Source of the DNA: Candidatus Nomurabacteria bacterium
Lineage (GTDB): Bacteria > Patescibacteriota > Minisyncoccia > Phycocordibacterales > UBA9973
NCBI GenBank assembly: GCA_026395995.1
Contig: JAPLXQ010000010.1
Span: 69,296-133,295, forward strand
Direction: 5' to 3'
DNA length: 64,000 bases
Shown here: in pieces, positions 1-14,570 of the stretch
How positions within the stretch are numbered: the stretch's first letter is position 1
Layout of the letters: each line of letters begins with the position of its first letter
Position numbers and translations under genes: made by a program
Notes under the pieces: model-generated
The model's database searches: none
What the model was told of the DNA's origin: nothing
What the model saw: only the letters and a program-made list of their open reading frames with translations

Positions 1-497
1 ATTTAAGAGAATATTTAAAACAGCATATTCAGACATATAAAAATGAAAAAGAGAACAAAATAATTTTTCCTAAAATTATAGTTTCCCCATATACAGTTGA
101 AATGGTTAGTATCCTTTTGGTTGGTTCTGCTCCTTGTGGAGAGCCACTTTTAGGAGAAAGTAATATTGAAGAAATGATATCAGTTGAAAAAAGTAAAATT
201 AGAGCAGGTGTTCAATATTTTATAGTACGAGCGAGTGGTGATTCTATGAATCTTGCAGGCATCAATGATGGAGATTTAGTTTTATGTCGTTATGCTGAAA
301 AAGGGGAAACAGGAGATCGTGTTGTAGCTTTACTTGGTGGTGAAAATGTAACTATTAAATTTTATGACAAAAAAGATGGACGAAGAATTTTGTTACCAAA
401 AAGTACAAATAAAAGTCACCAGCCAATTATTCCAGAAGAAGGTGATGTTGTTCAGGGTATAGTACAAGAAGTTATTAAATTAATAGACGAAGAGTAA
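1..497 (+). CDS. LexA-like repressor / S24 peptidase, 5-prime partial (reading frame open to window start)
   Basis: The frame of the 102..497 ORF has no stop back to position 3. LexA-like autocleavage region (LLVGSAPCGEPLLGESNIEE) followed by S24 peptidase motifs (GDSMNLAGINDGDLVLC ... VVALL). Confidence 0.55.
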   Translation, partial: LREYLKQHIQTYKNEKENKIIFPKIIVSPYTVEMVSILLVGSAPCGEPLLGESNIEEMISVEKSKIRAGVQYFIVRASGDSMNLAGINDGDLVLCRYAEKGETGDRVVALLGGENVTIKFYDKKDGRRILLPKSTNKSHQPIIPEEGDVVQGIVQEVIKLIDEE

Positions 498-500
498 TTT

Positions 501-1004
501 ATGAATGAAAATCAATTTTCTAAAATAAACAATGAAGAACTATGGCTTTTATATGCTGATGCTGAATTGGAATTAAAAAATCGAGGTCTTGTTAGAACTC
601 GCAACATAGTAGGCGAAAGAGGTGAATTTCTTGCAATAGAAACATATAATTCAATTCCAGGTTTACCAAATCTTCAAGCTGCTCCAGAAGGAACACGAAA
701 TATTGATGCAATTAGTCGCAAAGGAGAAAGATATAGTATTAAAACAGTTTCAGAACCAGGTACAACTACTGGAGTATTCTATGGTATTGAAGAAAAAGGT
801 AATACTACGACTCCTGAAAAAAAGTTTGAGTATGTAATTATAGTTCAAATTTTTAAAAACTATCGTCCAAAAAGAATTATTGAATTAACATGGGAACAAT
901 TTTTGAAACATAAAAAATGGCATTCAACAATGAGGGCATGGAATCTTAGTGTAACAAAAGCTTTATTAGAAGAATCTAAGATTATTTTAGATAATATAAA
1001 ATAA
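501..1004 (+). CDS. hypothetical protein; a weak D...E.K pattern hints at a PD-(D/E)xK nuclease fold
   Basis: 167-aa ORF separated by 4-5 bp from both neighbours (operon-like). No family recognised with confidence. Confidence 0.35.
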   Translation: MNENQFSKINNEELWLLYADAELELKNRGLVRTRNIVGERGEFLAIETYNSIPGLPNLQAAPEGTRNIDAISRKGERYSIKTVSEPGTTTGVFYGIEEKGNTTTPEKKFEYVIIVQIFKNYRPKRIIELTWEQFLKHKKWHSTMRAWNLSVTKALLEESKIILDNIK

Positions 1005-1009
1005 TAAGT

Positions 1010-2542
1010 ATGAAAGTAAAAAAATTACAATTAAAAAATGGATACAAAAGATTTTTTAATCTTACTATTGACTTGGGAGATGACCCTAAAAGAATTATTG
1101 CTTTAGTTGGACCAAATGGTTGTGGTAAAAGTAGTGTTCTTGATGGAATGCTTTTTAAAAACAATGCTTACAAAGCATTAGGTAATAAAGGTCAAAAAAC
1201 GTTTGAATTTCATTCTTTAAATAAAGATCCAGGATTTAATCATACTAGTATCGAGATAGAATTTATAGATGGAAATTTTGAGTTGATTAGAAATTCTAAT
1301 GATTTAATTCAAAAACAAAATACTATATTTTCATTTAGAAGCCCTTATCGATATAATAGTAATCTTAAAGTGTCTCAGTCAAAAGCAACTACTGACATAA
1401 AAGAAAATAACTATGGAGCGACAGCTTCTTCTGATCTTGATGATAAAATGGAGGAAAACTATCGTAGGTTAAATATTAAATATAATAGATATTTAAACGA
1501 ACAAGATTGCACTCCTAGCCAAGCAAAAGCTAAAATTATTGGAGATTTAAATAATTCTTTGGTAAATTGTCTTGATTTAGAAATAAAAAGTATCGGTAAT
1601 ATTGAAGCAGGAGAAGGTACTTTGTATTTTAAAAAAAATGACCACTCAGTTGAATTTGAATTTAACGTCCTTTCTTCTGGTGAAAAAGAAGTTGTAGATA
1701 TTTTACTTGATTTATATTTAAGACAAGATGAGTATGACAATACAGTTTTTTTAATTGATGAGCCTGAACTTCATATTAATACTTCAATTCAAAAAAAGTT
1801 GCTTATTGAAATAAATAAGTTAATTGGGGAAAATTGTCAGATTTGGGTGGCTACGCACAGTATTGGATTTTTAAGAGCGCTACAAGAAGATTTAAAAAAC
1901 GATTGCCAAATTATTGAATTTAAAGAAGATTTGAAGTTAGCATCTGAAATAGTTACTTTGAAACCAATGTCGTTAACAAGATCAAATTGGCAAAATATTT
2001 TTAAAACTGCGCTAGATGATCTATCTACTCTTTTAGCACCTCAAGAGATTATTTATTGTGAGGGTAGTATTAGTAGATCATTAGATGAAAAAATGTTTAA
2101 TGATATTTTTTCATCTAAATATCATAATTCTTTATTTGTATCAAGTTTAGGAAAAGATGATAGTCAAAAATACGCAGGAATAGCATTAACTGTTATTAAT
2201 AAAGCTTTTTCAGGAGTAAAAATTAAAGTCGTTATAGATCGAGATGATAACTTAGAAATTCCTAAAGATGGTACTGTTGAAGTTAGAAAGTTAAAAAGAA
2301 GAGAGTTTGAAAATTATTTATATGATATTGAGATAGTAGAGAAGACTTACCCAAATTTAGTTTTAGAAAAATATAAAGAAATTTGTAAGGACATTACAAA
2401 TGATGATGTTAAATCTAAAACTAAAGAATTTATGGCTTTGTGTGGTGAAACTGATAATAAAACTTTTAGGTTAAATCTTGCCGAAAAATTAACAGAAGAA
2501 ACAGAAGTTTTTAAAGAATTAGAAAGAATTATATTTAACTAA
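1010..2542 (+). CDS. OLD-family ABC-type ATPase with C-terminal Toprim-like domain (overcoming-lysogenization-defect-like nuclease)
   Basis: Walker A LVGPNGCGKSSVLDG and Walker B VFLIDEPELHIN. C-terminal IIYCEGSISRSLDEK ... VVIDRDD resembles a Toprim Glu plus DxD pattern. Confidence 0.55.
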   Translation: MKVKKLQLKNGYKRFFNLTIDLGDDPKRIIALVGPNGCGKSSVLDGMLFKNNAYKALGNKGQKTFEFHSLNKDPGFNHTSIEIEFIDGNFELIRNSNDLIQKQNTIFSFRSPYRYNSNLKVSQSKATTDIKENNYGATASSDLDDKMEENYRRLNIKYNRYLNEQDCTPSQAKAKIIGDLNNSLVNCLDLEIKSIGNIEAGEGTLYFKKNDHSVEFEFNVLSSGEKEVVDILLDLYLRQDEYDNTVFLIDEPELHINTSIQKKLLIEINKLIGENCQIWVATHSIGFLRALQEDLKNDCQIIEFKEDLKLASEIVTLKPMSLTRSNWQNIFKTALDDLSTLLAPQEIIYCEGSISRSLDEKMFNDIFSSKYHNSLFVSSLGKDDSQKYAGIALTVINKAFSGVKIKVVIDRDDNLEIPKDGTVEVRKLKRREFENYLYDIEIVEKTYPNLVLEKYKEICKDITNDDVKSKTKEFMALCGETDNKTFRLNLAEKLTEETEVFKELERIIFN

Positions 2543-2557
2543 ATACAAATCAATCCC

Positions 2558-2785
2558 ATGAAAAACCACATTCACTATCATAAAGACGGGAGCCTGTGGG
2601 GCAAGGGGCAGATGGCGGGGGATGTGATGGAAGGATATTGGGAATGGTTTTGCAAGCCTGTAGCGGGAAAGAAGATCGGCACGAGGATGCGCTCGGGGTA
2701 TTTCAAAAACGGCAAACAAGTCGGCGAGTGGACTACGTATGACAAAACAGGTAAAGTTGTGAAAGTTACGAAAATGAAATCATAA
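2558..2785 (+). CDS. MORN-repeat-variant (YwqK-like) small protein; GC about 50% against a 30% background
   Basis: Repeated G..G.W..Y..G motifs (HKDGSLWGKG, YFKNGKQVGEWTTYDKTGK) and strong local GC elevation. Confidence 0.45.
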   Translation: MKNHIHYHKDGSLWGKGQMAGDVMEGYWEWFCKPVAGKKIGTRMRSGYFKNGKQVGEWTTYDKTGKVVKVTKMKS

Positions 2786-2790
2786 ATAAA

Positions 2791-3057
2791 ATGTCCAACA
2801 AATACGAACAAAAGGCGGAGGTGGAGATTGATCTGCATGGGCACACGATGCTCGAGGCGGGGGAGGTTTTGGATGCTTTGTTTCGAGAGATGAGATACAA
2901 ACATGTCCGCATCATCACTGGTAAAGGCAAGAATAGTGAGAATGGTCCCGTCTTGCCGAACTTTGTGCGAAACTATTTGAATTCCCGCGGGGTACATTAC
3001 AATCAATCCAAACTCCAATCCGGTGGCGAAGGCGCCCTCGAAGTTTTCCTACAATAA
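2791..3057 (+). CDS. Smr-domain protein
   Basis: IDLHGHT and ITGKGKNS motifs typical of the Smr/MutS2 C-terminal domain. Also GC-rich. Confidence 0.55.
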   Translation: MSNKYEQKAEVEIDLHGHTMLEAGEVLDALFREMRYKHVRIITGKGKNSENGPVLPNFVRNYLNSRGVHYNQSKLQSGGEGALEVFLQ

Positions 3058-3191
3058 CGTTTCAAACAATCTAAAATCTCTAATTTCAACCTTTTTATCT
3101 ATTTACCCATTCGTACGAATAGGTAAATGAATACAGTGGTGGTATAATATAGATATTAAAGTATTGTATTAAAAATTTAGTAAAATAAATT

Positions 3192-3458
3192 ATGAAAGAA
3201 AAAGAATACGAGAAAATTTTGAAAGCTTTGGCAAATCATCGTCGACTCAAGATCGTGATTTATCTTAAAGATAAAAAAATAGCGACTGTCGGCGCTCTCG
3301 CTTCCCATATCAAACTATCATTCAAATCAACATCCAAACACCTTACTGTTTTATATTCTGCTGGAATTTTAGAAAAAGAACAAAAGAATCTCTCCATGTT
3401 ATATAGTATCGCTGAACCGTTACCAAAGCTTGCTCGACAAATACTAAATACAATTTAG
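3192..3458 (+). CDS. ArsR/SmtB-family HTH transcriptional regulator
   Basis: [13 protein letters not shown] ... [30 protein letters not shown] winged-helix pattern. A TGGTATAAT -10 lies about 40 bp upstream. Confidence 0.55.
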
Positions 3459-3460
3459 AT

Positions 3461-3724
3461 ATGTACTATTTATATATTTTAAAATGTGCGGATCAGAGTT
3501 TGTATACTGGCATCACGACGGATTTGAAACGTCGGGTGGCGGAGCATAATGGTGAGAAGGGAAATAAACTCGGAGCGAAGTACACGAGTGCTCGTCGGCC
3601 GGTGGAAATGGTTTATTCTAATCGATTTAAAAATCGTTCTAATGCGAGCAAAGAAGAAGCGAGAATTAAAAGTCTGAGTAGGGAAAAGAAACTAGTTTTA
3701 ATAAATAAAAAGAAATCTGTGTAA
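3461..3724 (+). CDS. GIY-YIG nuclease-domain protein
   Basis: [29 protein letters not shown] is the canonical GIY-YIG motif. Confidence 0.7.
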
Positions 3725-3760
3725 GGGGAGTCCTTACACAGATTGTGTTAGAATTGGTGA

Positions 3761-4288
3761 ATGGATTTTAGTTATAATTTAAAAACGAATAGGCGGACGC
3801 GCGGAGTGCGGATCAGTGTCGGCGCTGGTGGAGAGGTGGTGGTGACTAGGTCACCGAGAATATCCATCGTACAAGTGGAAAGCCTTGTCACAAAAAGGGC
3901 GGAATGGATACGAGAGAAGATTGCAGAGATGGAAAAAAGGCCAAAGAAAATACTTGCTCATTTTAGTGTGAAGGAATACAAAGAGTTCAAGGAGCTCACA
4001 AGAGCTTTGGTAGAGGAAAGAATAAAAGTTTTAAATCAGAAATATAAATTTGAAGTAATGAGTATCAGCATTAGGAATCAAAAGACGAGGTGGGGAAGTT
4101 GTAGTGGAAAAAAGAATTTAAATTTTAAGTACAAACTTTTCTTTTTGCCACCCGAACTCTCGGATTATATTATCGTGCATGAATTATGTCATTTAAAAGA
4201 GATGAATCATTCGAAAAGGTTTTGGGATCTAGTCGCTTTGCAAGTGCCGAATCATAAAGAATGTCGAAAACAAATACAATTATATTAA
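3761..4288 (+). CDS. YgjP/DUF45-family metal-dependent hydrolase (HExxH)
   Basis: IIVHELCHLKEMNHSKRFWDLV near the C-terminus. Contains an in-frame 15-bp perfect palindrome GGTGACtaGGTCACC at 3840..3854. Confidence 0.65.
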   Translation: MDFSYNLKTNRRTRGVRISVGAGGEVVVTRSPRISIVQVESLVTKRAEWIREKIAEMEKRPKKILAHFSVKEYKEFKELTRALVEERIKVLNQKYKFEVMSISIRNQKTRWGSCSGKKNLNFKYKLFFLPPELSDYIIVHELCHLKEMNHSKRFWDLVALQVPNHKECRKQIQLY

Positions 4289-7331: not shown

Positions 7332-10300
7332 ATGGAAGAAAAAAATAACACAAATAAATCAGAAGTAGCACTTCGTGAAGAAGCAGTTTTAGAATTTTGG
7401 AAAGAAAATGATATTTTCCAAAAAACTTTAAATAAAAAAGAAAATCCAAGAGGTGATTATATATTTTTCGATGGTCCGCCTACTGCGAATGGTATGCCAG
7501 GAATTCACCACATGGAAGCTCAAGCCTTCAAAGATGTCATGCCTCGTTATAAAACAATGAGAGGTTTTCATGTACCTAGAAAAGCTGGATGGGATACTCA
7601 CGGTCTTCCTGTGGAATTACAAGTAGAAAAAGCTCTCGGTTTGAAATCAAAAAAAGAAATTGAAAAATATGGTGTGGAACTTTTTAATCAAAAGTGTAAA
7701 GAAAGTGTTTGGAAATATCGAGATGAATGGATAAAATCACGTCAAAGAATGGGGTATTGGGTAGATATGGATAATGCTTATGTAACTTATAAAAATGATT
7801 ACATTGAAGCACTTTGGGGAGTAGTAGCAAAAGCCAATGATCGCGGACATTTATACAAAGACTTCAAAGTTCTTCCGTGGTGTACTCGTTGTGGAACAGC
7901 ACTTTCCAGTCACGAGCTTTCTCAACCAGGAGCATATAAAGATGTAAAGGATCTTTCAGTCTATGTGAAATTTAAAATAAAAGGTTTTGAAAATGGATAC
8001 TTTTTAGCTTGGACGACGACACCTTGGACTTTGCCTGGAAACGTGGGGCTAGCAGTCGGTAATGATTTTACTTATGTAGAAGCTAAAGTTGGTAATGATA
8101 TTTTGGTTCTTGCGAAAGAAAGATTAGAAATGATTACTGAGCCATACGAAATAATAGCAGAACATAAAGGTAGTGAAATGATTGGTATGGAATATGAACC
8201 ACTGTTTCCATATTTGAAAAATAATATAGAGAGTGATGTACGGACACAAATAGAAAATCTAAAAAACGCATTTAAAATTTATGGTGCAGATTTTGTGACG
8301 ACGACAGATGGTACAGGAATAGTACACACAGCAGTGATGTATGGAGCAGATGATTTTGACCTCGGTACAAAAGTTAACTTACCTAAATATCATACAGTAA
8401 ACGAAGAGGGAAGATTTGTTGCGGGTACTGATTTCCTCGAGGGACGATATGTAAAAGAAGCTGATGAGAATGGTAAGCCTACACTCGCGGTAGACATAAT
8501 AGACAATCTCACTGGCCGTGGACTTTTATTTAAAAAAGAAAATCACATGCACAGTTATCCGCATTGTTGGCGTTGTGATACACCGCTCATTTATTATGCG
8601 AGAACTTCTTGGTATTTCCGTATGAGTGCACTTCGTGATCAACTCCTAGCAGGAAATGAAAATATAAATTGGGAACCAAAACATATAAAAGAAGGACGTT
8701 TTGGTGAATGGCTCGACGGTATCAAGGATTGGGCTATTTCTCGTGATCGTTATTGGGGGACGCCGTTACCTATCTGGCAGAAGGCTGATGGAAGTTATAA
8801 AACTATTTCATCTCTTTTAGATTTGAAAAAATATACAAAGAAATCTGGAAATAAATATTTCATAATGCGCCACGGTGAGACAGAAGCCAATAAAAAAGGA
8901 ATTATTTGTTCATTACCTTCTGGTAAATGGCATCTAGATGAAGACGGAAAGAGGCAAGTAAATGAAACAGCTGAAAAATATAAAGATCAAAAAATTGATT
9001 TGATTTTTACTTCAGATTTTACTCGTACTCAAGAAACGGCAGAAATAATGGCTGATAAACTTGGATTAAATTCTGATCAAATTATCGTAGACCAAAGACT
9101 TCGTGAAATAGGTGCTTATTCTTTTGATGGAAAAAGTTGGAATGAATATCACGAGTATCATACAAAAACAGTTGAGAATTTCAACAAGCGTGTAAATGAA
9201 GATGAATCATATGAAGATGTAAAAATTCGTGTCACTTCTTTCCTTTATGAAATAGAAGAAAAATATAAAGATAAAAATATTTTATTTGTGACACATGGTG
9301 GACCAGCATGGTTGCTATTTGCTGGGGCTGAAGGTAAAGACCCAAAAGAAACATTAGACATGGTAATAGATAAGAAAGACTATCATTATTTCCAAAATGC
9401 AGAAATAAAAGAATTAAATTTTACTCCATTGCCACACAATGAAAAATTCGAATTAGATTTTCATAAACCATTTATTGATAATGTTGTATTAGAAAATAAC
9501 GGAGAAACACTTACTCGTACTTCAGAAGTGATGGACGTATGGTTCGACTCTGGGTCTATGCCTTATGCACAGGGTCATATACTTGGAGAAGAAATGAATT
9601 TCTCTCCCGCTAAAGCTGATTTTATTTCTGAAGGACTCGATCAGACTCGTGGTTGGTTTTATACTTTGCACGCTGTTTCAAATTTACTTTCAGACAAACC
9701 AAGTAATGCATATAACAATGTAATTTGTCTCGGGCTTATTCTGGATGCGAATGGACTCAAAATGTCCAAGTCTCGTGGTAATGCTGTAGACCCTTGGGCT
9801 ATGTTTGAAAAATATGGAGCAGACACTATTCGTCTCTGGATGTATTCTGTGAATCAGCCAGGGGAGTCAAAGAATTTTGACGAACGAACTGTGATGGAAC
9901 TTCACAGACAAGTTTTCGGACTTTTGTATAACATAGTTTCTTTTTATGAACTTTACCGAGACCATGACTTAGAAAGGTCTTTCCTTGAGGAGGAACATAG
10001 TGACGGGAAGGGTAAGTCCTTGCTAAGTCAGAACGTACTCGATATTTGGATTCTCGCTAGACTAAACGAATTAACAAAAAATGTTACAGAAAATTTGGAT
10101 GGCTACAAAACACTTGAACCAGTGCGCGCTATTCGTGATTTCATCGATGATTTATCTACATGGTATCTCCGTCGTTCACGTGAGAGAATTAAAGAAGGTG
10201 ATAAAAATGCAAAAGTTACTTTGTATTATGTTTTGAAAAACTTAACAAAACTTATGGCACCATTTGCACCATTTGCTAGTGAAGATATTTATCGAAAATT

Positions 10301-10862
10301 AAGAAATGAAAATGAGCCGGAATCTGTGCATCTTTGTGAATGGCCTAAATTCGAGGTTCTAGTTTCTAGTGATGAGGTTCTAGTGAAAATGCAGAAAACA
10401 AGAGACATTGTTTCTGTGGGATTAAAAGAGAGACAGAAATCAGGAATACCTGTGCGTCAGGTTTTGGGTAGTGTAAAGGTTCTTGTTGAAAAATTAGATA
10501 CTGAATACATTGATTTAATAAAAGAAGAATTGAACGTCAAAGAAGTAATACTAGAACCTAGCAACTCGAACCTAGAAACTAGTGTCGTACTCGACACAGT
10601 TATAACCCCTGAACTCAAAGAAGAAGGGAACTATCGCGAACTCGTTCGCGCTATTCAAGACATGCGTAAAAAAGCCGGACTTACTCCTTCAGACATAATT
10701 TCTCTTTCTATAGAAACTGATGAAATAGGAAAATCATTAATTCAAAAATTCGAAGCTGATTTCAAGAAAACTATTCTAATAAATGAAGTAAAATTTGAAA
10801 ATAACAGTGGGGAAGAGGTAAAAGTAGGCGCTTTAAATTTCAAAGTTAGTATTCTTAAATAA
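7332..10862 (+). CDS. ileS: isoleucyl-tRNA synthetase (type 2-like) carrying an inserted histidine-phosphatase domain at about 8790..9420
   Basis: HMEAQAF (HIGH-like), KMSKS, WAISRDRYWGTPLPIW and DVWFDSGSMPYAQ class-I editing aaRS motifs. The insert carries RHGETEAN, TRTQETAEI and VTHGG, the signature of the phosphoglycerate-mutase-like histidine phosphatase family. Confidence 0.85.
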   Translation: MEEKNNTNKSEVALREEAVLEFWKENDIFQKTLNKKENPRGDYIFFDGPPTANGMPGIHHMEAQAFKDVMPRYKTMRGFHVPRKAGWDTHGLPVELQVEKALGLKSKKEIEKYGVELFNQKCKESVWKYRDEWIKSRQRMGYWVDMDNAYVTYKNDYIEALWGVVAKANDRGHLYKDFKVLPWCTRCGTALSSHELSQPGAYKDVKDLSVYVKFKIKGFENGYFLAWTTTPWTLPGNVGLAVGNDFTYVEAKVGNDILVLAKERLEMITEPYEIIAEHKGSEMIGMEYEPLFPYLKNNIESDVRTQIENLKNAFKIYGADFVTTTDGTGIVHTAVMYGADDFDLGTKVNLPKYHTVNEEGRFVAGTDFLEGRYVKEADENGKPTLAVDIIDNLTGRGLLFKKENHMHSYPHCWRCDTPLIYYARTSWYFRMSALRDQLLAGNENINWEPKHIKEGRFGEWLDGIKDWAISRDRYWGTPLPIWQKADGSYKTISSLLDLKKYTKKSGNKYFIMRHGETEANKKGIICSLPSGKWHLDEDGKRQVNETAEKYKDQKIDLIFTSDFTRTQETAEIMADKLGLNSDQIIVDQRLREIGAYSFDGKSWNEYHEYHTKTVENFNKRVNEDESYEDVKIRVTSFLYEIEEKYKDKNILFVTHGGPAWLLFAGAEGKDPKETLDMVIDKKDYHYFQNAEIKELNFTPLPHNEKFELDFHKPFIDNVVLENNGETLTRTSEVMDVWFDSGSMPYAQGHILGEEMNFSPAKADFISEGLDQTRGWFYTLHAVSNLLSDKPSNAYNNVICLGLILDANGLKMSKSRGNAVDPWAMFEKYGADTIRLWMYSVNQPGESKNFDERTVMELHRQVFGLLYNIVSFYELYRDHDLERSFLEEEHSDGKGKSLLSQNVLDIWILARLNELTKNVTENLDGYKTLEPVRAIRDFIDDLSTWYLRRSRERIKEGDKNAKVTLYYVLKNLTKLMAPFAPFASEDIYRKLRNENEPESVHLCEWPKFEVLVSSDEVLVKMQKTRDIVSVGLKERQKSGIPVRQVLGSVKVLVEKLDTEYIDLIKEELNVKEVILEPSNSNLETSVVLDTVITPELKEEGNYRELVRAIQDMRKKAGLTPSDIISLSIETDEIGKSLIQKFEADFKKTILINEVKFENNSGEEVKVGALNFKVSILK

Positions 10863-11465: not shown

Positions 11466-12305
11466 ATGAAAAATAATACTATCGAAAAAACGGTTTTCTC
11501 TATCAATGAACTTTTAGAGAGAAAAAAAGAAAATGAAGATTTATATATTCAAGATGAATTAAGATCTTTAATTAGTGACATATTTAAAAGCCCGAAAGAT
11601 GCTGCGGAGTTCTTTTCCAAAGAAGTTAAATCTACTCTAAAAAAAATTATCTGTATGGATAAAAGTACGGGTGCGTACAGTCTATATAAGTATTTGAAAG
11701 AAAGCGATTTTTCTTTTTCTGAAGGGCTTCTCATGTATGCAATAGACAATGAACCTTATTATAACAATAATGACAGTGCTTTCGTTTATTACTTATTAAA
11801 AGCTGTGCATAAAACAGAATTAGAAAAAAGTGTAACACTTTTTGTAAATCAAACTCTTCTCTTAGAAGGACATTTTTGGGATTATAAAGAGATATTTATA
11901 AATTCATACGAGTTGCACAGAAAAAATCTAATTCCTCAAATTCCTCAAAATATAGAAAGAGAAATAATTCATTCTGTAAGTACAGGTCAGCATCATCACC
12001 GCAAAATGAAAGCAATAGCTACTTCTGTTTTCTTGGGTATACAGGGAGCAACGCCTCATATTTTAAACACTTTCCTCTCAAAAGTAAGAGAGGTGATTAA
12101 AATGAAAGAGCAAGGAGAAATTAAAGTTAACTACAACATAAATAATTCAGTTCAAAATTTGGGATTTGTTCTGTATTGTTTAACTAATGAAGAAAAATAT
12201 AAGGAGTTAAGCATTTGCCCAACTGACGGACTATTTGACGGGGACGATGTAAGAATACCAATCTTTAACACTATATATGAAACTATTAAAAAATATAATT
12301 ATTAA
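11466..12305 (+). CDS. hypothetical protein
   Basis: 279-aa ORF. No family recognised. Confidence 0.4.
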   Translation: MKNNTIEKTVFSINELLERKKENEDLYIQDELRSLISDIFKSPKDAAEFFSKEVKSTLKKIICMDKSTGAYSLYKYLKESDFSFSEGLLMYAIDNEPYYNNNDSAFVYYLLKAVHKTELEKSVTLFVNQTLLLEGHFWDYKEIFINSYELHRKNLIPQIPQNIEREIIHSVSTGQHHHRKMKAIATSVFLGIQGATPHILNTFLSKVREVIKMKEQGEIKVNYNINNSVQNLGFVLYCLTNEEKYKELSICPTDGLFDGDDVRIPIFNTIYETIKKYNY

Positions 12306-12321
12306 TATAGTTATATTGAGG

Positions 12322-12352
12322 ACGGATACGAGTAATCGTATCCGTTTTTTTT
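12322..12352. terminator. bidirectional Rho-independent terminator between the converging 11466 gene and recG
   Basis: ACGGATACGagtaatCGTATCCGT flanked by T and A runs. Confidence 0.6.
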
Positions 12353-14570
12353 ATTCAAAATGCAATTCTAAATGCTTTTTGGAAAGCATAGTTTTTAGTA
12401 GAGGGTGGTGTATGAGGTCTGGGTCGGTGGCGATAATGTTTGTCGCTTCGAGGCGGGCGGCTTCAACCATTTTTATATTTTTTATGGCTTCCATTCCGAG
12501 GTCAGTGATGCCCCATTGTTTCGCGCCGCCTAGTTCACCTGCACCGCGAAGTGTGAGGTCGAGTTCGGAAAGTTCAAAACCATTTTTAGCAGTTTTGAGA
12601 GCATTCAATCTGTGCATAGTTTTTTCAGATTTTGCTTCTGCGAAAACATAGCAAAAAGCTTGGTGATTACTACGGATCACGCGTCCACGGAGCTGGTGTA
12701 GTTGTGCGAGCCCAAATCTCTCTGCACCTTCGATGATTATTATCGTCGCATTCGGAACATTCACGCCCACTTCGATTACAGATGTTGCAACGAGAATATC
12801 AATAGCACCCAAAGTAAAACGCTCCATCACTTCTTCTTTTTTTTCTTTACTCATCTTGCTATGAAGTACTCCGATTTCACAATCTGTAAATATTTCTTTT
12901 TTAAGTCTTTTTGCTTCAGCTACTGCAGACTTCATTGTGAGAGCTAGTTCCTTTTCCGGATCTGGTTCGTCGATACGAGGGCAGATGACATAGAGCTGTC
13001 TACCTTTGGCCATTTCTTCTTTTATTTTTTTATAAGTATCTTCTCTTTTGTCTGGAGTAATTATTTCTGTAATCACTGGTTTTCTACCTGCTGGCATTTC
13101 GTTGAGCAAACTTAAATCAAGGTCACCATAAATAGTGAGCGCAAGAGTGCGGGGAATCGGTGTCGCTGTCATTGAAAGTAGATGAGGGGCGAAGCCGTCT
13201 TTGCGAACAAGATTTCTTCTTTGGTTTGTACCGAAACGATGTTGTTCATCGATTATTGTGAGTGCGAGGTTTTTAAATTTCACCGATTTTGAAATGAGTG
13301 CGTGGGTGCCGATAAGTATTGGAATTTCACCATTAGCAGTCCATTTCAAAAGTTGAGCTCTGGAAATATTTGTCCAGCCGTCAGGACTAACCTTTGAAGG
13401 AAACTTCCGACAGGTCTTGCCTGTCAGCAAGGCGACGTTGATCGGTAAATGTTTAAAATATTTTATAAACGATTCAAAATGTTGAGTTGCTAAAATTTCC
13501 GTCGGTGCCATATATGCGACTTGGAGATTTCCGAATGTTTGAGGCTTGCCCTGAGCGGAGTCGAAGGGTCTTTGAGTAACTGTCGCATAAGTCACAGTCG
13601 CTGCGACGGCAGTTTTACCAGAGCCTACGTCGCCTTCGAGAAGGCGAGACATTGGGTGGTCCGCTTTAATATCAGTGAGAATTGTATTAATAGCATCGAC
13701 TTGTCCTTGAGTCGCTTGAAAAGGAAAACGTTCCAAGAATTCTTGCACCTTAGCTTCATCTGGATTAACGCAAAATGATTTATTATTTTTATATTCTCTG
13801 CGGTCTTGTTGTCTTTGTAATTGGATGAAAAAAACTTCTTCAAAAGCAAAACGCTTTCTAGCTGAAAGGGAATCGTGTTCATTTTGCGGTGTATGAATCC
13901 AAATGAGTGCAGTCTTCAAACTCGGTAAATGATATTTATCTAAAATGTCTTTTGGTATGTAATCGAAAAAACTATCCAATACACCACTGTTAAATATTTT
14001 TTGTATTGTATGATAAATCCACTTTGAAGTAATACCTCTAGTTTCTCTGTATACAGGATATGAAAGTCCTACTCCCTCTCCTTTATAAGGAGAGGGTCGG
14101 GGTGAGGTGGATTTTTCAGGGGGTGAATTCTTAAATAAACTCTCATGTTTATCTATAGGAAGGCTTCCAATTTTTTCAAATTCTGGATTAGTAAGATATA
14201 AACCGCTTTTACTTTCGGTAACTTTCCCTGTGAGTTTGATGTTTTCTCCTTCATGAATCATTTTTGCAAGGTAAGCTTGGTGAAACCAAATTATTTTTAT
14301 TCTTCCTGAGAGGTCTTCGATGTAAGCTTCGCCCATAGGAATCTTTGAACGGAAACCTTTTTTTGTTTTTAAATTTGTTACTTTTCCATACACTGTGGCT
14401 GTTTCACCAGCTACTAACTCATCAATTTGTTTTATTTGAGAAATATCTGAGTAACGAACAGGGAAGTAGAATAGTAGGTCGGCAACAGAAAAAAGCCCGA
14501 GCTTGTGAAGGGCTTTTTTCTGATTGATGTCGAGGCGTGAAATGTCCTCAAGTTTGTCACCTATATTCAT
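12351..14570 (-). CDS. recG: ATP-dependent DNA helicase RecG, with an in-frame GC-rich palindromic insert near its N-terminus
   Basis: DVGSGKTAVAA Walker A and DEQHRFG DEAH box, plus the N-terminal wedge-domain region. 739 aa. Confidence 0.8.
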   Translation of the reverse strand: MNIGDKLEDISRLDINQKKALHKLGLFSVADLLFYFPVRYSDISQIKQIDELVAGETATVYGKVTNLKTKKGFRSKIPMGEAYIEDLSGRIKIIWFHQAYLAKMIHEGENIKLTGKVTESKSGLYLTNPEFEKIGSLPIDKHESLFKNSPPEKSTSPRPSPYKGEGVGLSYPVYRETRGITSKWIYHTIQKIFNSGVLDSFFDYIPKDILDKYHLPSLKTALIWIHTPQNEHDSLSARKRFAFEEVFFIQLQRQQDRREYKNNKSFCVNPDEAKVQEFLERFPFQATQGQVDAINTILTDIKADHPMSRLLEGDVGSGKTAVAATVTYATVTQRPFDSAQGKPQTFGNLQVAYMAPTEILATQHFESFIKYFKHLPINVALLTGKTCRKFPSKVSPDGWTNISRAQLLKWTANGEIPILIGTHALISKSVKFKNLALTIIDEQHRFGTNQRRNLVRKDGFAPHLLSMTATPIPRTLALTIYGDLDLSLLNEMPAGRKPVITEIITPDKREDTYKKIKEEMAKGRQLYVICPRIDEPDPEKELALTMKSAVAEAKRLKKEIFTDCEIGVLHSKMSKEKKEEVMERFTLGAIDILVATSVIEVGVNVPNATIIIIEGAERFGLAQLHQLRGRVIRSNHQAFCYVFAEAKSEKTMHRLNALKTAKNGFELSELDLTLRGAGELGGAKQWGITDLGMEAIKNIKMVEAARLEATNIIATDPDLIHHPLLKTMLSKKHLELHFE
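14071..14125. repeat. GC-rich palindromic element inside recG (CCCTCTCCtttataaGGAGAGGG followed by TCGGGGTGAGGTGG)
   Basis: Perfect 8+8 palindrome plus conserved tail. Encodes SPRPSPYKGEGVG in frame. Related copies at 39371..39418 and 33567..33600. Confidence 0.6.

What the first reader, a model, noticed from the sequence alone, without database searches (positions are those of the whole stretch)
1..2542. LexA-like / unknown / OLD-family ATPase-Toprim three-gene operon: candidate SOS-linked defence or abortive-infection module
Three ORFs separated by 4-5 bp. The first is a 5-prime-truncated LexA/S24 autopeptidase. The second is a 167-aa unknown with a faint D...E.K pattern. The third is a 510-aa protein with an ABC-type ATPase head (Walker A GPNGCGKSS, Walker B LIDEPELH) and a C-terminal segment (YCEGSISRSLDEK ... 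VIDRDD) resembling the Toprim domain of OLD-family nucleases (class 1 OLD, Gabija GajA, PARIS AriB relatives). No UvrD-like partner follows, so it is not a canonical Gabija. Coupling to a LexA-like repressor is unusual.
Basis: partly seen in the sequence, partly recalled or inferred. Interest (0 to 1): 0.55.

Follow-up and report, generated by a model that had tools for sequence, protein, structure and literature searches.

The report
Defence-gene island, not one operon system
The three tightly packed genes are real, but they are three separately mobile anti-phage-type modules that happen to sit side by side in one Candidatus Nomurabacteria genome, and the supposed LexA repressor is the tail of a large nuclease-helicase.

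Summary
The three ORFs, their 3 and 5 nt spacers and all quoted motifs are confirmed. The reading as one LexA-coupled system is not supported.

- **Gene 1.** An identical contig (L001) extends the window 2028 bp upstream. Gene 1 is a 716-aa GIY-YIG nuclease, DUF2075/Schlafen-type helicase and S24 peptidase fusion with no DNA-binding domain. A DCTPP1-like MazG gene lies directly upstream in 12 of 12 independent loci.
- **Gene 2.** It is not an unknown. It matches PADLOC's methyl-directed type II restriction enzyme model over its full length (E 6e-61) and weakly matches BisI-family Eco15I.
- **Linkage.** None of 80 genome loci holding a gene 3 relative carries gene 1 or 2. None of 80 metagenome loci holding a gene 2 relative carries gene 3, and only a few carry gene 1.

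This is best read as a low-GC defence island of independent modules. The least-described part is the MazG plus nuclease-helicase-S24 pair.

The parts
1..497 (+). 3' end (last 164 codons plus stop) of a 716-aa gene encoding a GIY-YIG nuclease, DUF2075/Schlafen-group-3 SF1 helicase and S24 peptidase. The start of the gene and its MazG-like (DCTPP1-like) partner lie upstream of the window (L001 375-2525 and 26-373).
   Evidence: L001 is 100% identical to window 1-2820. Pfam hits are SLFN-g3_helicase 1.2e-63, Peptidase_S24 3e-18 and GIY-YIG 2e-5.
117..440 (+). S24 self-cleaving peptidase domain. The putative scissile Cys597-Gly598 is at 135-140, the nucleophile Ser633 at 243-245 and the general base Lys671 at 357-359.
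   Evidence: Pfam S24 covers residues 39-146 of the window fragment. Ser and Lys are invariant in 118/118 homologues, and Cys-Gly is present in 68/118. Codons were read.
501..1004 (+). 167-aa BisI-family-like PD-(D/E)XK nuclease (putative methyl-directed type II restriction enzyme). Candidate active-site residues are E42 (624-626), D69 (705-707) and S79-I-K81 (735-743).
   Evidence: PADLOC mREase_II PDLC03205 matches at E 6.1e-61 over residues 7-164. A family profile hits Eco15I at E 7e-4. Invariant residues are listed. The BisI active-site description comes from PMC11347163.
1010..1999 (+). ABC/SMC-type ATPase head of the 510-aa fused PARIS/OLD-like protein. Walker A is at 1109-1135, the signature LSSGEKE at 1670-1690, Walker B FLIDEPELH at 1748-1774 and the H-loop ATHS at aa 281-284.
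   Evidence: Pfam AAA_21 2e-17 and SMC_N 1.3e-10. PADLOC AriAB 7.2e-33, PtuA 2.5e-25 and AriA 8.7e-22. These residues are invariant in A1. Foldseek top hits are PtuA, retron ATPases and GajA.
2000..2542 (+). C-terminal OLD-type Toprim nuclease domain (DUF4435-related). The acidic residues are E351 (2060-2062), D359, D410-R-D412 (2237-2245) and E432/E434 (2303-2311).

Best explanation
Window 1-2542 is the downstream part of a co-directional, probably co-transcribed, low-GC gene block in a Candidatus Nomurabacteria genome. The order is MazG-like, GIY-YIG/DUF2075/S24, BisI-like nuclease, fused ATPase-Toprim. It is a defence island built from three independently inherited modules, not one three-component system.

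(1) **Gene 3** is a single-chain PARIS/OLD-like effector. By analogy with PARIS (inferred), the ABC ATPase head would sense a phage-derived trigger. ATP-dependent rearrangement would then unleash the Toprim nuclease, which in AriB cuts host tRNA and stops translation.

(2) **Gene 2** is a small dimeric-type PD-(D/E)XK nuclease of the BisI lineage. It most likely cuts DNA carrying 5-methylcytosine or a related mark. It stands here without any cytosine methyltransferase.

(3) **Gene 1** with its upstream DCTPP1-like MazG partner is an Nhi-like nuclease-helicase. Its C-terminal S24 domain probably gates activity by self-cleavage at Cys597-Gly598, possibly stimulated by RecA filaments.

Shown here: the domain architectures, the catalytic residues, the structural similarity and the lack of conserved linkage. 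Inferred: the triggers, the substrates and the defence phenotype.
For: **Gene 1**
- Its identity comes from the upstream extension.
- The tri-domain architecture is conserved in 118/120 best homologues, from CPR bacteria and Bacteroidota.
- The catalytic residues of all three domains are invariant.
- A MazG-like gene sits directly upstream in 12/12 independent loci. It is homologous to dCTP pyrophosphatase 1.

**Gene 2**
- PADLOC mREase_II matches at 6e-61 over the full length, and the family profile hits Eco15I.

**Gene 3**
- Single-gene PARIS fusions are already documented (PMC9122126, PMC11464382).

**Independence of the modules**
- 0/80 gene 3 loci contain gene 1 or gene 2, apart from one weak S24-only hit about 4 kb from the gene 3 relative in L066. 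Their neighbours vary; examples include type I R-M operons in about 6 loci and Fic-domain and integrase genes.
- The nearest gene 3 relative (74% identity) sits beside a HaeIII R-M system.
- 0/80 gene 2 loci contain gene 3. Three of them have MazG plus Hel-S24 directly upstream, and a separate look-up found Hel-S24 directly upstream in a fourth.

**Foreign character**
- The four genes have 27-30% GC against 33.3% for the window. The first 2.5 kb ranks second lowest of 123 windows.
Against: - The 1-15 nt spacers and the absence of any predicted terminator between the genes mean they are probably co-expressed here, so local functional cross-talk cannot be excluded.
- Gene 1 directly upstream of gene 2 recurs in four related Patescibacteria loci, with a similarly short gap. 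MazG plus Hel lies within 8 kb in about three more. This is above chance.
- Gene 2 has Ser where BisI enzymes have Gln in the QxK motif. About half of its relatives sit inside 5mC R-M/Vsr cassettes, so its modification dependence is not established.
- The MazG plus Hel-S24 pair often lies among housekeeping genes, so a DNA-repair role is possible.
- No phenotype was tested.
Confidence: 0.7

Rival explanations
1. The genes form one integrated system in this lineage. In this reading the nuclease-helicase-S24 protein, with MazG, works together with the BisI-like nuclease, and here also with the ATPase-Toprim protein, as sensor and effectors.
For: - The spacers are very short and no terminator is predicted.
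- Hel-S24 directly followed by the gene 2 homologue recurs in L082, L090/L091 and L164-166.
- MazG plus Hel lies near gene 2 in L093, L158 and L161.
Against: - More than 65 of 75 gene 2 loci lack gene 1.
- Gene 1 homologues in L162, L171-L173 and L180-L182 lack gene 2.
- Where both occur, order and distance vary (L093 against L082), as expected for island shuffling.
- Gene 3 co-occurs with the others only in this genome.
Confidence: 0.12
2. Only gene 3 is a defence gene. The MazG plus GIY-YIG/DUF2075/S24 pair would be a DNA-damage or nucleotide-pool house-cleaning module. Gene 2 would be an accessory nuclease of 5-methylcytosine maintenance, a partner of Vsr, rather than a restriction enzyme.
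For: - The pair sits among housekeeping genes in Flavobacterium, Tenacibaculum and other genomes, sometimes near RadC or DinB-like genes.
- The S24 domain is the classic RecA-responsive module.
- MazG/DCTPP1 enzymes sanitise dNTP pools.
- Gene 2 homologues abut vsr in 18 loci, overlapping it by 8 nt in about half of them. They also coexist with complete HpaII- or HinP1I-type R-M pairs.
Against: - Proteins with the nuclease plus DUF2075 architecture (Nhi, Nhi-like) are experimentally validated anti-phage proteins.
- PADLOC files the gene 2 family with methyl-directed restriction enzymes.
- In CPR genomes the pair co-localises with R-M genes.
Confidence: 0.15
3. One reading: a LexA-like repressor encoded by gene 1 controls an SOS-inducible abortive-infection operon.
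For: The S24 domain has an intact Ser/Lys dyad and a cleavage site.
Against: The complete protein has no HTH or winged-helix domain. The 550 residues upstream of the S24 domain are a GIY-YIG nuclease and an SF1 helicase. The LexA equivalog score is 64.6 for the complete protein and 69.6 for the window fragment, against a cut-off of 110.95.
Confidence: 0.02

Closest known systems
PARIS, single-gene (merged AriAB) form; more broadly OLD-family ATPase-Toprim nucleases (class 1 OLD, AriA/AriB)
   Same: - An N-terminal AAA_21/SMC-type ABC ATPase with all motifs.
- An acidic set of E351, D359, D410/D412 and E432/E434, matching AriB E26, D30, D88, E90 and E122.
- A stand-alone gene found in defence islands.
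- Best PADLOC model is AriAB.
   Different: - It is 510 aa (about 536 aa in most relatives) against the 694-position AriAB profile, of which only positions 283-537 are covered by the best stretch.
- Pfam DUF4435 and Toprim_OLD do not score on this protein itself.
- It belongs to a very conserved family of its own, with 56-60% identity across phyla.
- Its trigger and substrate are unknown.
BisI family of modification-dependent type II restriction endonucleases (BisI, NhoI, Eco15I)
   Same: - A size of about 170 aa.
- A PD-(D/E)XK core with a helix Glu, an xD motif and an xIK motif 10 residues later.
- A full-length PADLOC mREase_II match and a profile hit to Eco15I.
- No companion methyltransferase in this locus.
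   Different: - Ser79 replaces the metal-binding Gln of QIK/QVK and is invariant in this clade.
- About half of its relatives lie next to C5 methyltransferases, Vsr and complete type II R-M pairs, which is reported as unusual for BisI homologues (PMC4926085).
- Its specificity and modification dependence are untested.
Nhi / Nhi-like nuclease-helicase anti-phage proteins (nuclease + DUF2075)
   Same: An N-terminal nuclease fused to a DUF2075 SF1 helicase in one polypeptide, with a weak PADLOC Nhi hit (E 8e-12).
   Different: - The nuclease is GIY-YIG, not PD-(D/E)XK.
- There is an extra C-terminal S24 self-cleaving peptidase domain.
- There is an obligate upstream DCTPP1-like MazG partner.
- It is often found outside defence islands.
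LexA / UmuD / lambda CI (S24 self-cleaving proteins)
   Same: An S24 fold with a Ser-Lys dyad and a Cys-Gly (UmuD-type) or Ala-Gly cleavage site.
   Different: There is no DNA-binding domain. The S24 domain is appended to an enzyme, so cleavage would regulate a nuclease-helicase rather than transcription.

Membership tests
PARIS (merged AriAB) | AAA_15/AAA_21 ABC ATPase domain | tested here: met
   Pfam AAA_21 2e-17, above the cut-off. PADLOC AriA 8.7e-22 and AriAB 7.2e-33. Walker A, signature, Walker B and H-loop are invariant.
PARIS (merged AriAB) | DUF4435 (PF14491) domain detected by its HMM | tested here: not met
   No PF14491 hit for this protein at E <= 1. The link is only transitive: 6/28 remote relatives of the C-terminal domain hit DUF4435, best E 2.8e-8.
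PARIS (merged AriAB) | Toprim fold with AriB-like acidic metal-binding residues | tested here: met
PARIS (merged AriAB) | Activation by a phage anti-restriction protein and tRNA cleavage | not testable with these tools
   This needs phage challenge and biochemistry.
OLD family, class 1 (single gene) | ATPase and Toprim in one polypeptide without a conserved partner gene | tested here: met
   The architecture is shown. No recurrent neighbour appears in 79 genome loci. Pfam Toprim_OLD is not matched.
Gabija | Adjacent UvrD-like GajB helicase | tested here: not met
   The downstream gene is a 75-aa ORF. No conserved helicase neighbour was found across 79 loci.
Septu (PtuA/PtuB) | HNH nuclease partner PtuB | tested here: not met
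   The PtuA-like ATPase similarity is real, but there is no HNH gene nearby. The nuclease is a fused Toprim domain.
LexA | N-terminal winged-helix DNA-binding domain | tested here: not met
   The full protein has GIY-YIG and SLFN-g3_helicase domains upstream of S24. The lexA equivalog scores 64.6 for the complete protein and 69.6 for the window fragment, against a cut-off of 110.95.
LexA | S24 Ser-Lys dyad and Ala/Cys-Gly cleavage site | tested here: met
   Ser633 and Lys671 are invariant in 118/118 homologues. Cys597-Gly598 is present here and in 68/118.
BisI family (type IIM) | Sequence membership (family HMM) | tested here: met
   PADLOC mREase_II PDLC03205 E 6.1e-61 over residues 7-164 of 167. 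The family profile hits Eco15I at E 7e-4.
BisI family (type IIM) | Active site of Glu (helix), xD and QxK | tested here: inconclusive
   E42 and D69 align with the Eco15I residues, but the third motif is S79-I-K81, with Ser in place of Gln, invariant in this clade.
BisI family (type IIM) | Cleavage only of 5mC/5hmC-modified GCNGC-type sites | not testable with these tools
   The context is ambiguous. There is no C5 methyltransferase in the 64-kb window, but relatives often sit in 5mC R-M/Vsr cassettes.
Nhi-like | N-terminal nuclease plus DUF2075 helicase in one protein | tested here: met
   Pfam GIY-YIG 2e-5 and SLFN-g3_helicase 1.2e-63. The definition comes from the Millman et al. preprint.
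Nhi-like | Match to the Nhi family HMM | tested here: inconclusive
   PADLOC Nhi E 8.4e-12, but only residues 269-421 are covered.

The most novel reading that the evidence does not exclude
The conserved two-gene unit that gene 1 belongs to may be an undescribed damage- or infection-gated system. The unit is a DCTPP1-like dCTP (or modified-dCTP) pyrophosphatase plus a GIY-YIG nuclease, DUF2075 helicase and S24 self-cleaving peptidase.

In this reading, RecA-filament-stimulated or spontaneous cleavage at the Cys/Ala-Gly site would switch the nuclease-helicase on or off, while the MazG enzyme removes cytosine nucleotides that phages need. Its repeated placement beside a BisI-like nuclease in Patescibacteria could reflect a shared theme of attacking cytosine-modified phage DNA.
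Probability: 0.25. Interest if true: 0.6.

Novelty: new member of a known kind. Interest (0 to 1): 0.3.

Why it matters
**Annotation.** A gene that looks like LexA from its last 160 codons is the tail of a nuclease-helicase. An 'unknown' is a BisI-like nuclease. The ATPase-Toprim gene belongs to a large, strongly conserved, stand-alone PARIS/OLD-like family of more than 2600 homologues at E <= 1e-5. That family is often nested in R-M operons.

**Defence in reduced genomes.** The locus shows that small CPR genomes stack several single-gene defences head to tail. Tight spacing alone is therefore poor evidence for a multi-gene system.

**A lead for experiment.** The S24-tagged nuclease-helicase with its obligate MazG partner is widespread and uncharacterised. 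A protease switch of the LexA type attached directly to an effector enzyme would be a new way to couple DNA damage or phage replication to immunity.

Tried and rejected
- **Foldseek of the full gene 3 model against the PDB**. It returned only ATPase-domain matches (PtuA, retron ATPases, GajA) and said nothing about the C-terminus.
- **HMM profile of the C-terminal domain against PDB sequences**. It did not find AriB or OLD.
- **Pfam and NCBIfam on gene 3**. They gave only generic ATPase hits. NCBIfam gave nothing for gene 2.
- **Promoter and terminator scan of L001**. It was no different from shuffled sequence, so operon structure rests on spacing only.
- **Search for a C5 methyltransferase, Vsr or HATPase partner of gene 2 in the 64-kb window.** None was found.
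- **Gabija, Septu and a LexA regulon.** All three were considered and rejected on missing partner genes or domains.
- **The idea that gene 2 is the cognate endonuclease of the neighbouring methyltransferases in related loci.** This was dropped for many loci, because true HpaII- or HinP1I-type endonucleases are also present there.
- **A LexA operator search.** It was not pursued because gene 1 has no DNA-binding domain.
- **Upstream sequence beyond L001.** It could not be obtained, because only proteins encoded in the window can be looked up.
Full report
**Observation.** The window opens inside an open reading frame that ends at 497. It is followed by ORFs at 501-1004 (167 aa) and 1010-2542 (510 aa), all on the + strand, with spacers of 3 and 5 nt.

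**Extending the locus.** An exact-sequence look-up of genes 2 and 3 found one public contig, Logan SRR20698644_11375, fetched as L001. It is 100% identical to window 1-2820 and adds 2028 bp upstream. The database names the organism Candidatus Nomurabacteria. L001 shows that gene 1 is a 716-aa protein preceded, one base away, by a 115-aa gene.

**Gene 1.**
- Pfam finds GIY-YIG (residues 34-69), SLFN-g3_helicase/DUF2075 (185-550, E 1.2e-63) and Peptidase_S24 (591-698, E 3e-18). No DNA-binding domain is found. NCBIfam's LexA model scores 64.6 for the complete protein, against a cut-off of 110.95. It is therefore not LexA.
- Of the 120 best homologues, 118 carry the S24 domain. They come from CPR bacteria and from Bacteroidota such as Flavobacterium, Tenacibaculum and Aquirufa.
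- In an alignment of 118 full-length homologues, the GIY-YIG residues (Y36, Y47, G49, E50, R57, H61), Walker A, the Walker B DE motif, S24 Ser633 and Lys671 are all invariant. A Cys-Gly site, as in UmuD, is present here and in 68 sequences. The linker before it is the least conserved stretch.
- The upstream 115-aa protein is MazG-like (Pfam 3.9e-18). It is homologous to mammalian dCTP pyrophosphatase 1/RS21-C6 (E 1.4e-17) and to an archaeal pyrophosphatase, 4qgp (E 7e-21).
- A MazG-like gene lies directly upstream, abutting or overlapping, in all 12 independent loci where the upstream side is visible: L001, L082, L090/91, L093, L162, L171, L172, L173, L180, L181 and L182.
- The conserved unit is thus a two-gene pair. 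Its surroundings vary, from R-M genes, an Mrr-type nuclease and toxin-antitoxin-like genes to plain housekeeping genes.
- Nuclease plus DUF2075 proteins (Nhi and Nhi-like) are experimentally validated anti-phage proteins. PADLOC gives only a partial Nhi hit here.
- Text searches found no paper describing the S24 fusion or the MazG partner. Such searches do not prove absence.

**Gene 2.**
- PADLOC's 'type II methyl-directed restriction enzyme' model PDLC03205 matches residues 7-164 at E 6.1e-61.
- A profile of 24 family members hits the BisI-family enzyme Eco15I in the PDB at E 7e-4. That alignment places E42 and D69 on Eco15I acidic residues and S79-I-K81 on its QIK motif. The BisI active site is described in PMC11347163. 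The Ser-for-Gln change is invariant in this clade.
- The family has about 1000 close relatives, mostly in Patescibacteria.
- Among 75 metagenome loci with a callable gene, 36 have a full C5 methyltransferase within four genes, nearly always on the same strand. Eighteen have vsr directly adjacent, overlapping by 8 nt in about half of them.
- In many of these loci a true HpaII-type (E 2e-104) or HinP1I-type (E 7e-81) endonuclease is also present. There the gene 2 homologue is an extra gene of 5mC cassettes rather than their endonuclease.
- The BisI literature says most homologues lack a nearby methylase, so this clade is unusual.
- The 64-kb window has no C5 methylase or Vsr homologue. Family membership is well supported. 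Modification dependence is inferred only.

**Gene 3.**
- Pfam finds AAA_21 and SMC_N. PADLOC ranks fused AriAB first (E 7.2e-33), followed by PtuA, AriA and Old.
- The family is large, with more than 2600 hits at E <= 1e-5. It is also unusually conserved, at 56-60% identity across Bacteroidota, Cyanobacteria, Proteobacteria, Firmicutes and CPR.
- All ABC motifs are invariant. So is a C-terminal set made of C350-E351-G352, D359, D410-R-D412, R430, E432 and E434-N-Y.
- The C-terminal domain alone has 214 cluster representatives, almost all in proteins of the same architecture. Six of 28 distant ones hit Pfam DUF4435, best E 2.8e-8, although the query itself does not.
- An AlphaFold model of the domain (pLDDT 89) has the beta-alpha-beta-alpha-beta-beta order of a Toprim fold. 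The Glu follows strand 1 and DxD follows strand 3.
- The acidic set parallels AriB E26, D30, D88, E90 and E122.
- Single-gene PARIS fusions are already known. The refutation tests it proposed, loss of the Toprim acidic residues or a housekeeping RecF/SbcC identity, both fail to refute.

**Are the three genes one system?**
- In 80 genome loci anchored on gene 3, none contains a relative of gene 2, of the helicase part of gene 1, or of MazG. Most gaps to the neighbouring genes exceed 100 bp and the neighbours differ from locus to locus. About six loci are nested between hsdS and hsdR of type I R-M operons.
- The closest relative of gene 3 (74% identity) lies beside a HaeIII R-M pair.
- In 80 metagenome loci anchored on gene 2, none contains gene 3. 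MazG plus Hel-S24 is directly upstream in L082 and L090/L091, and Hel-S24 in L164-166, which came from a separate look-up. The pair lies within 8 kb, in other positions, in L093, L158 and L161.
- Seven further gene 1 loci lack gene 2.
- The four genes have 27-30% GC against 33.3% for the window. No terminator is predicted between them, but the scan is uninformative.

The best reading is a defence island in which independently mobile modules were packed head to tail. Some enrichment of gene 1 near gene 2 is typical of island co-localisation. The triplet itself was seen only in this genome.

**Mechanism and confidence.** I commit, at about 0.7, to three separate modules.
- Gene 3 is a PARIS/OLD-type abortive-infection nuclease controlled by its ATPase.
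- Gene 2 is a solitary BisI-like nuclease, probably directed at modified cytosine DNA.
- Gene 1 with MazG is an Nhi-like nuclease-helicase gated by S24 self-cleavage, paired with a dCTP-type pyrophosphatase.

Architecture, residues and distribution are shown here. Triggers, substrates and phenotypes are inferred.

The rivals are a lineage-specific integrated system (0.12), a repair or 5mC-maintenance role for genes 1 and 2 (0.15), and the LexA-repressor model (0.02, refuted by the upstream sequence).

**Novelty and interest.** Genes 2 and 3 are new members of known kinds. Gene 1 with its partner is a widespread but undescribed variant of a known kind, and it is the only part worth experimental follow-up. 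Overall interest is modest (0.3).

Noticed in passing
window 7332-10862 (+): The isoleucyl-tRNA synthetase (1176 aa) carries a histidine-phosphatase (His_Phos_1) domain inserted at residues 510-680, between two stretches of the class I synthetase core (Pfam E 1.2e-35).
   Followed up: no
L082-L161 (relatives of window 501-1004): About half of the gene 2 relatives sit in 5-methylcytosine cassettes. A C5 methyltransferase lies within four genes in 36/75 loci. vsr is directly adjacent in 18, overlapping by 8 nt in about half of them. True HpaII- or HinP1I-type endonucleases are also present, so this BisI-like protein is an extra, unexplained component of such cassettes.
   Followed up: partly
L001 26-373, and L082, L090, L091, L093, L162, L171-L173, L180-L182: A DCTPP1/RS21-C6-like MazG pyrophosphatase gene directly precedes the GIY-YIG/DUF2075/S24 gene in 12 of 12 independent loci across CPR bacteria and Bacteroidota. 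This makes it a conserved two-gene unit.
   Followed up: partly
window 2558-2785 (+): The 75-aa ORF just after gene 3 has only a weak, sub-threshold MORN_2 hit (Pfam E 0.0033, 17.9 bits against a cut-off of 29.6). It has 46.9% GC, against 27-30% for the four module genes and 33.3% for the window. This marks a sharp compositional boundary at the end of the island.
   Followed up: no
window 3192-3458; L164 3587-3868; L172 8117-8398; L082 ~12277-12453: An ArsR-type HTH_5 gene recurs a few genes downstream of the Hel-S24 gene in several Patescibacteria loci, with different genes in between. This hints at a variable hotspot, but the proteins are only 25-30% identical.
   Followed up: partly
L039, L047, L049, L063, L066 (relatives of window 1010-2542): The gene 3 family is repeatedly inserted between hsdS and hsdR of type I restriction-modification operons. 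It also occurs on a few IMG/VR viral contigs.
   Followed up: partly
window 2791-4288 (+): A run of small genes follows the island: an Smr-domain protein, an ArsR HTH, a stand-alone 87-aa GIY-YIG protein and a YgjP-like metallopeptidase.
   Followed up: no
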